Assembly: GCA_964016885.1 (NCBI GenBank)
Contig: CAXHJY010000941.1
Coordinates: forward strand, 62,001 to 126,000
Direction of reading: 5' to 3'
Source of the DNA: Eledone cirrhosa
Lineage: Eukaryota
Length of the DNA stretch: 64,000 nt
The notes beneath the pieces were generated by a model that was given only the letters and a program-made list of their open reading frames with translations, was not told the origin of the DNA and did no database searches. The translations under genes and the position numbers were made by a program. Shown in pieces: positions 8,029 through 11,697 of this stretch (positions are counted from its first letter, which is position 1; every line of letters begins with the position of its first letter).

Positions 8029-8073
8029 AGTCATAGTTCTTTCGTCACACACTCTGTGACCTCTTCAGTGACT
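8029..8073 (-). ncRNA. Minimal type I hammerhead ribozyme-like motif (PLE1)
   Basis: Minus strand reads AGUCA-CUGAAGA-G-GUCACA-gagug-UGUGAC-GAAA-gaac-UA-UGACU. Stems I and II pair perfectly. Confidence 0.75.
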
Positions 8074-8356
8074 GGGGATTTCTTTCTTCATTTCTGTGCC
8101 TTTCCTTTCTTCTATCCTACGCCATTTTGTTTGTGTGTGGGTTGCGTGCTCAGTTTGCGCATGCGCCACATCCGGGTGTCTGTGTGTGTTTGTGTTCATT
8201 TTTCTAATTTTCTATTTATATTTTTTTATTTGTTTGTTTATTTATTTATTTATTGTTGGTTGGTTGTTTGTTCTATGTGTGTGTGTGTTTTCATTTTGTG
8301 TGTGTTTTCAATTGTAAGTTGTTTGTTCGATGTGTGTGTGTGTTTTCATTTTGTCC

Positions 8357-11300
8357 TTAATTGTAAGTTGTGATGTTGCTGTTCCACTCATATTTTCTAT
8401 TTAATTTTGGTTTTAATTCTTTTATGCTTACTGCCTCTGTAATTTGCCTAAACATTGCGTCTTTCTTGTGTGTGGATTCTATTTTTATTTCTATGCTCTC
8501 TAATTTACCCCTGTGTTCTATCTTAGCATGTTGGTAGAGCACAGATGATTCTTTATTATCTTGGAGGTCTCGCCAGTGTTCATTTATTCGTTCCCCTATA
8601 CTACGAGCTGTCTCACCTATGTACACTACATTTTTGTTTCTACATTGTCCTTCAGTACATCTTATGCTATATACTACATTTCTAGTTTTACAGTTAATAT
8701 GGGGGCTTATTTTACAGGTTATACATTTCTTATCTATACATGGGGGTCTTTGGAACGGGTATGTCTTGCTAATAAGTGTTTTTACGGAGGTACCAGGTCT
8801 TTCTACTATCTTAATATTGAGATTATGTTTCTTTAGGGCCCTTCTAAATTTGTAGGCTAGTTCGCCTCTAGGGGTTGTATTGATGAACATTACACTCTGG
8901 TATTTATTGCTATCATACCATGAGTTTATTCTATTGGCCTTGTTCCTAGTTCTTTCTATTCTATTCCAAAATTTGCTCCTATACAAGGGGCAGGTCCCAT
9001 TTATGTCATTATTTACCATTTTTTCCCATTTGGTTCTGGCTCCTTTATACACTCTGATTCTATCTCTCTGATTGTAGCCAGAGAACTGCATACGGTGGAT
9101 GAAGTGTTGTATGTGTCTCTCTAGTTCTTCGGGGTTGCACATGCGGGACACATTTCTCATCACCCGTACCAAATCCGCAATCAGTATGTTGATTTTGGTA
9201 TGGTCCGAAATGGCCGAGTTTCGGTGGATCAGATGTTTGGAAGTCATGGGTTTGGCATAATGGGAATGGAGGATTTGTTTTTGGTTGTTAATAGTATCTA
9301 ACCAGAGCTCTGTGTCTAGTACAGGTAATCGATGGTTGGGGTGTCTACTTGGGTAGTCTATAGTAACTCTAATGCTCTGGTGGATGGAGTTTGCTATTTG
9401 CTGGATGCTTTCCATTGTGTTTTTCTCTAGTTCCTGACTGTTCTTTAGTGGGGGTGTCTTAACTACGATGTTTATATCATCTACGTAGCGGGAGTACATT
9501 ATCAGGGTTAAGCTGTCTTCTAATTGTTCATTAAGTTTTTGTTTAAGTCTACTGTCCCACCATACCATGAATAAGTTAGCTATGTCGCCTGCAATGCTAA
9601 CACCAATGGCTGCTCCTTCCTCTTGGGCATATGTTTTACCATTAAATTTGAACATATGTTCCTTAAGGGTTAGTTTTATGCTGGCCCCTACCGCATGTGC
9701 AATCATTTTCTTCAGTTCATCATGGTTTTCGGGTGTCCGTATGGCTCTGGTCCACCCGTTCCATCTATCTGTGTGGGTTTTCTTGGCCATTGAGGTAATG
9801 GTAGGTGGTCTGCCTCTTGCTGGTCTTGTAGGGCACAGGTTGCTAAGGTCATAAGTGTCTAGGTAACTATTACTATGGGTAAGCTTAAGTAGAAGTCCCA
9901 GCTCACTGGTATCAATCCCACGGAACTCAACCTTGCTCTCGCTGATCATTTCGACGCATTTCTCCACAGCAAAATCCACGTCAATAGATGGATACAGGGA
10001 CACAACATCCATACTGCCTATTATGCAGTTTGTTAGGTCCCCAGATCGGTTACCCGCGCCGATTCTGCTGAGGAGGTCCTCCGTGCTGTCACACACATCT
10101 GGGGACATCTCAATGATGGAGCGTATGATCAGGGAGAGGAAGTAGGACAGTCTGTAGTTACTAGCAATGTTAGCCCCACAGACTGGCCGTGTTGGTGGTC
10201 CCGCGACAGGGTCCCAGCCCGTTTTATGGTCTTTACGAAGCCCATACAACGCCGGCACGTCATTGTTCCAGGCCTGGAAGTTGTTGGCAGTCCTTTTGTT
10301 GGGCTGCATTATATTTGTCCACATCACCATATGGGCATTGAGGGTTTTTTCTCTATCCTCATGCTCCTGTGGTGTTACCTCTCTTGTGTTAGTGATGTGG
10401 GGTTGCATTGCCTGGATGTAGTTTGGCAGGCTGTCAACCGACATTCTGCCAGACTTGTCTGTTGGAAAGCATGCTATCTCTCCATTACGCGAGCGCTGCA
10501 TGAGCTTACGCAAGCCATTTGCAGATTCTTCTCCCAGTTGCTGGGCCTCTATTCTATTATGCTTCTTGCTATACTGTTCTATAATATTTCTAAGTTCGGA
10601 TTTAGCTATACTAAATTGTGCCTCTGTTTGTTCATCGACCTGCGACGGCAACTGCGTGCGTTTGTTAAATGGCAAAGTCGTGGCGTGGACTCGTCGTAGG
10701 TCGAATGATTTATCGGAGGGGTTATAAAACGGAGAGTTCCAGGCTGCTGCTTTATGTGTACTAGTGCTATTGTTATTGTTAGTTGTGTTGTTTCTATTTC
10801 CACCAACAGCAGCAGCCTCAGCTTCATGGTTGTTTCTATGTCTCTCATAATTACTCCTGTCTCTTTCCACTGGCTCAATGTTGTTATCTACCCTATTTTG
10901 TGTGTCTGTGTGTTCGTCTTGGTTATTCTCTTTGTCCTTAGTCTCCCTTCTCCTTTTAATCCTATTACTTTCTCTTATTTCTCTGATTTCTGTGCTACTG
11001 TCATTACTTGTTTTCTGTGTCTGTGTGTTTAAGATTGTGGTGAGAGGCATTGAATGCGTGTGTGTTGTTGTTGTTGATGTGTGTTGTTGTTGATGTGTGT
11101 TGTTGTTGTCTCCGTGTGTGTGTGTGTTATCGTTGTTGTGTGTGTTGTTATTGTTGTTTGTGTTTGCGTGTCTGTTGTTGTTGTATCTGGGTATGTTGCT
11201 ATTGTTGTTGTTGTTGATGTGTGTGTTGTTGTTATTATTGTCTCCGTGTGTGTTGTTATTGTTGTTTGTGTCTGCGTGTCTGTTGTATCTGGGTATGTTG

Positions 11301-11499
11301 CTATTGTTGTTGTATCTGGGTATGTTGCTATTGTTGTTGTTATTGTTGTTTGTGTCTGTGTGTCTGTTGTTGTTGAGATGTGTGTTGTATATGTGTGTGC
11401 GTATATTGTTGCTTTTGTTTTTGTTTTTGATGCTCCAGCGTAGTTTCGTAAATGATTTTTCTATTTCTGACAGACAACTAATCATATTTACCATATTTA
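8357..11499 (-). CDS. PLE reverse transcriptase + C-terminal GIY-YIG endonuclease (N-terminus missing)
   Basis: [46 protein letters not shown], Cys linker [17 protein letters not shown]...[31 protein letters not shown]. The first ~9 aa of the tracked ORF come from the inverted segment. Confidence 0.93.
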
Positions 11500-11697
11500 T
11501 CTGGTTGTGGAACCAACCAACCAACCAGAAATTTATAAATTTGTAAATTTATAAATATTTAATAAATTAAATTGAAGTGAAAGCAACTGGTGCGTGTGTT
11601 TCTTATTGGCAACATGACCCTCCCAAAGTATAACAATATCGGTTTCAACACACGATTTCAGATAAAGAATCTTGCTAAACAAATTCAGAAACGAAAT

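What the first reader, a model, noticed from the sequence alone, without database searches (positions are those of the whole stretch)
8029..11697. PLE1 has twin-priming geometry and was copied across the ribozyme cleavage site
Seen, using 25234-25862 as the colinear reference: the long minus segment ends outwardly at 8029, just past the hammerhead (ref ~25707). The short plus segment 11500-11697 starts ~16 nt further downstream (ref 25723). The two pieces are consecutive on one template but point away from each other. Known: this is the layout of twin priming described for L1. Inference: both TA strands primed on one RNA. The internal primer sat ~5 nt 3' of the predicted cleavage site, so the template was uncleaved or religated (circular or multimeric).
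Basis: partly seen in the sequence, partly recalled or inferred. Interest (0 to 1): 0.72.

Follow-up and report, generated by a model that had tools for sequence, protein, structure and literature searches.

The report
Penelope insertion copied from both ends
This is a young back-to-back copy of a very abundant Penelope-type jumping gene; across the family the two halves overlap, stop at two fixed points about 60 bases apart and share the same A-to-G changes, which suggests that both cut DNA ends copy one uncut RNA, while the neat end-to-end fit at the ribozyme seen here is likely a coincidence.

Summary
Layout confirmed: a head-to-head Penelope-like insertion in a TA array. The long arm (11492-8029, minus) stops 5 nt past the predicted hammerhead cut; the short arm (11498-11699, plus) starts 14 nt further on. 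This fit is not the family rule. Copies end at two sites inside the ORF start, E1 (11,022 matches) and E2 (8,623), about 60 nt apart; 18,559 run on past the hammerhead and only 21 meet a long TA run there. In 79 of 83 classed inverted pairs one arm ends at E1, the other at E2, and most arms overlap. Of 11 other hammerhead-ended copies with a partner, 1 is adjacent, about as background predicts. Five of six A-to-G hyper-mutated pairs share their changes in both arms, which points to one RNA molecule under both arms. So two-ended priming on one uncleaved RNA is likely; a circular or religated template is not needed, and copying across the hammerhead is already published for another Penelope element. 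The 8029 end is a rare priming at an internal TA run or a later deletion. This scan noted the two-site rule and the editing marks before, on other DNA.

The parts
7275..8029 (.). TA/TG microsatellite, left flank (likely target array)
   Evidence: Sequence; same polarity of G interruptions as the right array
8029..8073 (-). Minimal type I hammerhead motif: stem I AGTCA/TGACT, core CTGAAGA, 6-bp stem II, GAAA, 2-bp stem III; predicted cut between 8034 and 8033
   Evidence: Read by eye from sequence; stems I and II in fold (z -1.5); Rfam gave no hammerhead match; cleavage untested
8029..8356 (-). 3' UTR / pseudo-LTR part of the long arm, cut short at the internal TA run (+5); +6 to +160 of a normal E1 arm is absent
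8357..11492 (-). Open RT plus GIY-YIG-type ORF with Asn-rich N-terminal region, 5'-truncated by about 223 codons
   Evidence: ORF; RVT_1 E 3e-4, below Pfam cut-off; missing N-terminus from natural copy L072; endonuclease motifs read by eye; 23 mismatches in 3461 nt to L197
11493..11497 (.). Inversion junction: 5 extra bases that, with 2 bases of the short arm, repeat 7 adjacent long-arm bases; 5-nt microhomology CCAGA beside it
   Evidence: no public run bridged it
11498..11699 (+). Short inverted arm, +19 to +220 from the cut: 5' leader, ORF start ATG at 11614, E1 at 11639, 60-nt tail 11640-11699 ending at E2
   Evidence: end counts
11700..12718 (.). TA/TG microsatellite, right flank
   Evidence: Sequence
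15012..20307 (.). Second inverted Penelope insertion of a related family (about 72% identical); arms 99.9% identical over 1473 nt, one ends at the E1 equivalent, the other carries a tail
25234..25862 (+).

Best explanation
8029-11699 is a young, 5'-truncated head-to-head insertion of an endonuclease-bearing Penelope-like retrotransposon, likely made when both cut ends of a TA repeat primed reverse transcription on one uncleaved RNA. Shown: family copies end at two sites in the ORF start (E1, +160; E2, +220 from the hammerhead cut), an inverted pair nearly always has one of each, the arms usually overlap, and hyper-mutated pairs share their A-to-G changes. Inferred: two reverse transcriptases start on the same RNA, one at each AATAT site that can pair with the TA target; the trailing one re-copies what the leading one copied, presumably by displacing it; the two cDNA ends join by short homology or a few inserted bases. 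Inferred for this copy: the short arm is a normal E2 arm that stopped at +19; the long arm ends at the internal TATATATA run either because the upstream primer paired there instead of at E1 (about 55%) or because +6 to +160 was later deleted between that run and the flanking array (about 40%); the 14-nt fit between the arms is coincidence.
For: End counts: E1 11,022, E2 8,623, read-through into ORF 460, hammerhead continuing 18,559, hammerhead plus long TA 21. Pairing: E1+E2 in 79 of 83 classed pairs of 99 junctions, 72 of 76 with a stricter method. Overlap: both arms cross the cut in 32 of 72, at least one in 58 of 72; inner breakpoints within 15 nt of each other in 14 pairs against 3.5 in shuffles, 8 against 2.7 without the cluster near -100. 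Either arm can be the longer (E1 38, E2 22, level 12). Shared A-to-G changes, both arms/one arm: L073 32/0, L129 30/3, L220 11/1, L236 22/14, L242 10/2; the L073 pattern has exactly 2 matches in the genome. In L129 the E1 arm reaches further 5' and the E2 arm further 3', so neither arm contains the other. In vitro, another Penelope protein cuts and extends both strands, starts at two internal sites and prefers uncleaved RNA (PMC11167929).
Against: L239 does not share: 19 A-to-G in one arm, none in the partner, which has 6 T-to-C, as expected if a whole hairpin transcript was edited and re-inserted; so not every pair is made afresh by two primers. L236 has 14 unshared changes. 4 of 83 pairs are E1+E1 or E2+E2 and 16 of 99 were not classed. 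Partner arms are as close as or closer than the nearest other copy in only 20 of 50 pairs. Shared changes could also come from a fold-back DNA copy or later gene conversion. The sample is the first 47 Mb of one contig, anchored on intact ends. Strand displacement, the dimer and the A-to-G source (ADAR) are untested here.
Confidence: 0.6

Rival explanations
1. Fold-back and resolution: one cDNA folds back on itself, makes a hairpin that reaches beyond E2, and the endonuclease trims one end at E1 and the other at E2. One RNA, one primer.
For: Explains shared A-to-G changes and matched inner breakpoints; four junctions sit in a 26-29 nt palindrome of the element. Self-priming was proposed in PMC3846280 (passages); PMC8557442 ascribes the tail to endonuclease resolution (passages).
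Against: The first cDNA must be the longer arm, yet the longer arm ends at E1 in 38 and at E2 in 22 pairs, so trimming would need both polarities. Both ends carry AATAT next to TA, which fits priming. In vitro both strands are extended from these kinds of sites.
Confidence: 0.2
2. One reading: L1-type twin priming gave two consecutive pieces, the inner primer sat 5 nt past the cut, and the template was circular, religated or multimeric.
For: The 14-nt fit is real. One other copy, L067, is adjacent. Ends at +5 pair with rare ends near +85 in 2 of 4 cases, so +5 can be a priming site. 7 of 72 normal pairs have an E2 arm starting near or beyond E1.
Against: 10 of 11 other hammerhead-ended copies with a partner are not adjacent; partners start from -108 to +136. 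Arms starting at +6 to +30 occur beside normal partners (5 of 182 arms). Only 460 matches read through E2 into the ORF against about 19,600 ends. 5' ends cluster at -119 to -80 (22 of 144) and not at the cut (5 at +1 to +20), as for a linear RNA that starts upstream of the ribozyme.
Confidence: 0.08
3. Dual priming: each cut strand primes on its own RNA molecule.
For: Explains overlap without strand displacement; described as a possibility for L1 (PMC2837659, passages); L239 arms differ.
Against: Does not explain why 79 of 83 pairs use two different sites, the matched inner breakpoints, or pair-specific shared A-to-G patterns in 5 of 6 pairs.
Confidence: 0.08
4. The 8029 end or the inversion junction is an assembly or read artefact between two long TA arrays.
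For: The window lies on a small contig (C968) with TA arrays of 750 and 1000 nt on either side.
Against: The junction has the microhomology and short insert seen at other junctions, the E2 end is exact, and 17 other copies end at the same place.
Confidence: 0.04

Closest known systems
Endonuclease-bearing Penelope-like elements with an inverted 5'-truncated copy and a one-sided tail (PMC8557442, passages and section 11; PMC3846280, passages)
   Same: RT plus C-terminal GIY-YIG ORF, partial tandems, head-to-head inverted copy, tail on one end only, pLTR and tail covering the first codons of the ORF, TA targets, Asn-rich insert.
   Different: Tail is 60 nt, not 30-40. Those passages say the tail is 'often' on one end and propose self-priming or resolution; here the one-of-each rule is counted and tied to one template molecule.
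PAc Poseidon element of the green anole (PMC11167929, parts 1-2 of 4 read; supplements not seen)
   Same: Two internal start sites downstream of the hammerhead inside the ORF start, both strands extended, uncleaved RNA copied, predicted dimer.
   Different: PAc showed no difference in start site between strands and no homology at the primer; here each insertion uses one site per end and both sites end in AATAT. The parts read do not model the inverted structure.
L1 twin priming (description in PMC2837659, passages; original work recalled)
   Same: Second strand primes inside the same RNA; inverted arm; microhomology at the inner junction.
   Different: L1 primes first at poly(A), the second site is opportunistic, and the pieces are consecutive with an internal deletion. 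Here both sites are fixed and the arms mostly overlap.
Minimal type I hammerheads of Penelope-like elements (PMC4209133, passages)
   Same: Long stem II, short stem I, extra base before stem II, very short stem III, pairs on opposite strands a few hundred bases apart; reported to cleave weakly and as dimers.
   Different: Activity of this motif was not tested.

Membership tests
EN+ Penelope-like element | Single ORF with RT and C-terminal GIY-YIG endonuclease | tested here: met
   ORF; RVT_1 below cut-off; YVDD and VYSI...VYIGET motifs read by eye; Pfam gave no GIY-YIG hit
EN+ Penelope-like element | Pseudo-LTR partial tandems, inverted 5'-truncated copy, optional tail | tested here: met
   L072 tandem; 460 read-through matches; pairs
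EN+ Penelope-like element | Hammerhead motif in the pseudo-LTR | tested here: met
   Core and stems by eye and fold; not detected by Rfam
Neptune or Nematis clade | CX2-5CxxC linker and CCHH motif in the endonuclease | tested here: inconclusive
   CIDKKCITC linker, two Cys in the GIY-YIG core and downstream His seen, against definitions; argues against Hydra; no tree built
L1-type twin priming | Both target strands prime | tested here: inconclusive
   Inferred from both 3' ends facing the target at fixed sites; no biochemistry
L1-type twin priming | Both arms from one RNA molecule | tested here: met
   Family level: shared private A-to-G clusters in 5 of 6 pairs; not testable in this copy, whose arms do not overlap
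L1-type twin priming | Consecutive, non-overlapping pieces as the rule | tested here: not met
   7 of 72 pairs near or beyond adjacency; 1 of 11 among hammerhead-ended copies
L1-type twin priming | Target-site duplication around the whole insert | not testable with these tools
   Both flanks are long TA arrays
Circular or religated ribozyme template (retrozyme-like) | Multimeric copies, no fixed 5' end, circular RNA | tested here: inconclusive
   Read-through is rare (460) and 5' ends cluster near -100; RNA could not be examined
Self-cleaving hammerhead | Cleavage at the predicted site | not testable with these tools
   No pile-up of 5' ends at the cut; needs an in vitro assay

The most novel reading that the evidence does not exclude
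Penelope elements insert by a programmed two-site twin priming: a dimer starts two reverse transcriptases 60 nt apart on one uncleaved RNA, both copy the same stretch, and their products are joined head to head. This single step would explain the inverted pseudo-LTRs and the one-sided tail, and inherited RNA-editing marks record it in the genome.
Probability: 0.55. Interest if true: 0.72.

Novelty: new variant of a known kind. Interest (0 to 1): 0.5.

Why it matters
How Penelope elements make inverted repeats and a one-sided tail is stated as open in PMC8557442 (passages). The counts here give a specific, testable model: one RNA, two fixed start sites, one per DNA end, overlapping copies. This family has about 20,000 ends in one genome and near-intact ORFs, so it suits an in vitro test. 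The locus itself is an ordinary member with one rare end and gives no evidence for a circular template. I found no paper stating this model in searches for Penelope with twin priming, with inverted repeat/tail/template or with ADAR editing; subscription papers and supplements were not covered.

Tried and rejected
DNA search of the genome with the short arm returned nothing because common words are skipped; patterns were used instead. Rfam found no hammerhead in the window or in 8030-8400. Fold z-scores of the motif were -1.0 to -1.5. No solved structure matched the ORF. Sequencing runs: no RNA holder listed. No contig or listed read bridged the 11492-11498 junction in 6 runs laid; they may be other individuals and the copy is young, so this is no evidence either way. 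Idea that short arms come from a hammerhead-cleaved 5' end: no excess at the cut (5 of 144 at +1 to +20 against 3-11 in neighbouring bins). Control TA-like site: 3 ends against about 18 at +5, which does not separate priming from deletion. Of the 23 matches, 5 were arms already known, 13 belong to an older subfamily with those bases inherited (12 shown, plus L234) and were dropped, L235 is a solo arm, and L236, L242 and L239 were scored, leaving one match (L238 among the 12) not separately scored; L218, L219 and L222 had no partner in the fetched stretch. L108's two shared A-to-G changes were not counted as hyper-mutation.

Full report
Coordinates written +n or -n count from the predicted hammerhead cut on the element's sense strand. 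Pattern counts are exact matches, so they are lower bounds and their ratios are approximate.

1. The observation. The window is G000:C968:62001-126000 of a 3.0-Gb assembly. 8023-8575 (minus) aligns to 25713-25234 and 11500-11639 (plus) to 25723-25862. The minus strand holds an open frame of 1045 codons from 11494 with a weak RVT_1 match and GIY-YIG-type motifs read by eye. A minimal type I hammerhead lies at 8073-8029 with the predicted cut between 8034 and 8033; Rfam does not detect it. Loose ends of laid contigs put the short arm's start at 11498 and the long arm's at 11492. The 5 bases between, with 2 bases of the short arm, repeat the adjacent long-arm sequence, and a 5-nt homology lies beside them. 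The copy is young: 23 mismatches in 3461 nt to L197. So the layout is real, with a template gap of about 14 nt.

2. The reference misleads. Natural tandem copy L072 runs hammerhead, short segment, 582 nt, long segment, hammerhead. The short segment holds the ORF start, and the long arm lacks about 223 codons. The short arm is therefore both downstream of one hammerhead and upstream of the ORF; the solo reference shows only the first order. Directly after the cut the element carries its own TATATATA run, so the long arm ends where the element itself looks like the target.

3. Where copies end. A 37-mer of the short arm has 16,027 matches. Ends: E1 (+160) 11,022; E2 (+218 to +220) 8,623; read-through into the ORF 460. 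The hammerhead continues into the element in 18,559 matches and meets a long TA run in 21; 3 of the 20 others are expansions of the internal run that resume the element. Crossing the cut is the rule and the 8029 end is about 0.1%. PMC11167929 (parts 1-2 of 4) already reports two internal start sites that define the tail, extension of both strands and uncleaved RNA as the main substrate. PMC4209133 (passages) reports low cleavage for minimal hammerheads.

4. Inverted pairs. I fetched 139 regions around listed matches in the first 47 Mb of contig C1. Of 99 inverted junctions, 83 had both ends classed: 79 E1+E2, 3 E2+E2, 1 E1+E1; a stricter method gave 72 of 76. In those 72, both arms cross the cut in 32 and at least one in 58; the E2 arm starts near or beyond E1 in 7. 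The E1 arm reaches further 5' in 38, the E2 arm in 22, level in 12. Inner breakpoints lie within 15 nt of each other in 14 pairs against 3.5 in shuffles. 5' ends cluster at -119 to -80 (22 of 144; 5 in each neighbouring 40-nt span) and not at the cut; most of these junctions have gaps of 13 nt or less. I read this cluster as a transcript start upstream of the ribozyme (inference). The second Penelope insertion in the window shows the same one-sided tail.

5. Is the adjacency meaningful? Among the 17 other copies that end at the hammerhead, one search found a partner in 11; partners start at -108, -90, -90, -55, -38, -38, -37, +4, +76, +112 and +136. One is adjacent. In the background, 5 of 182 arms start at +6 to +30, so one such case in 12 is expected about a quarter of the time. 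Partners end at E2 (2), E1 (2), read through (1) or at other places (6). For this copy I cannot separate priming at the TA run from later deletion.

6. One RNA or two? Some arms carry dense A-to-G changes on the sense strand, the pattern expected of ADAR editing (established knowledge; enzyme not tested). Shared by both arms/one arm only: L073 32/0, L129 30/3, L220 11/1, L236 22/14, L242 10/2. The L073 pattern has exactly two matches in the genome, the two arms. Patterns differ between pairs. In L129 neither arm contains the other, and the hammerhead core is destroyed in both. Other private substitutions are mostly unshared (117 against 11 shared non-A-to-G), which argues against frequent conversion. 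Against: L239 has 19 A-to-G in one arm and 6 T-to-C in the other, as expected if an existing hairpin was transcribed, edited and re-inserted whole; L236 is mixed; a fold-back copy of a longer cDNA would also share changes.

7. Mechanism. Most likely (0.6) both TA ends prime on one uncleaved RNA at two fixed AATAT sites, the copies overlap, and the cDNA ends join by microhomology. The end positions, pairing, overlap and shared changes are shown; priming, strand displacement and the join are inferred. Fold-back with resolution (0.2), proposed in PMC3846280 and PMC8557442 (passages), remains possible.

8. Comparison and novelty. The element meets the structural tests for an endonuclease-bearing Penelope-like element; motifs suggest Neptune or Nematis and not Hydra (no tree). 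It works like L1 twin priming in using a second primer on the same RNA but fails the consecutive-piece feature. Inverted copies, the tail and copying across the ribozyme are in print; the one-site-per-end rule with single-molecule evidence was not found in my searches. The retrozyme preprint 10.64898/2026.07.22.740005 was read in part 1 of 5 only and not relied on. Supplements were not seen and may bear on start-site use per strand. Earlier notes of this scan describe the two fixed ends and the editing marks on other DNA; I reached both before reading them and count them as leads only.

9. Verdict. Observation partly confirmed, interpretation partly supported. The locus is an ordinary young member with one rare end. 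The family-level mechanism is a new variant of a known kind and directly testable. Interest 0.5.

Noticed in passing
L239 (G000:C3:17110187-17113216): Inverted pair with A-to-G in one arm and T-to-C in the other, as if the whole hairpin transcript was edited and re-inserted with both ends intact.
   Followed up: partly
L072/L073 (G000:C1:2083700-2090100): Full partial tandem whose upstream pseudo-LTR is hyper-mutated and of a different subfamily from the downstream one; the inverted arm matches the upstream one.
   Followed up: partly
L061, L067, L071: Pairs with both ends shifted upstream, to +5 and about +85, both TA-like sites; suggests a minor alternative pair of priming sites.
   Followed up: partly
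window 8125-8135 (minus) and family position -119 to -80: 5' ends cluster just around an AAGATGGCG/AAAATGGCG motif, which resembles the YY1 site near the L1 start (label recalled, not tested).
   Followed up: partly
window 10750-11430: Asn/Thr/His-rich low-complexity stretch inside the ORF, upstream of the RT, like the N-rich inserts described for rotifer Penelope elements.
   Followed up: no
window 7149-7274 and L015: The sequence beyond the left TA array matches the sequence beyond the E1 TA run of L015: another repeat abutting TA arrays.
   Followed up: no
G000:C1:132947043-132947575: Twelve tandem copies of a 46-bp unit spanning the E2 read-through junction.
   Followed up: no
window 31711-31810 and 32742-33001: Near-perfect 48-bp-arm hairpin and a longer imperfect hairpin, possibly small inverted-repeat elements.
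   Followed up: no
window 55633-62690: About 7 kb tandem array at roughly 90% identity between offsets.
   Followed up: no
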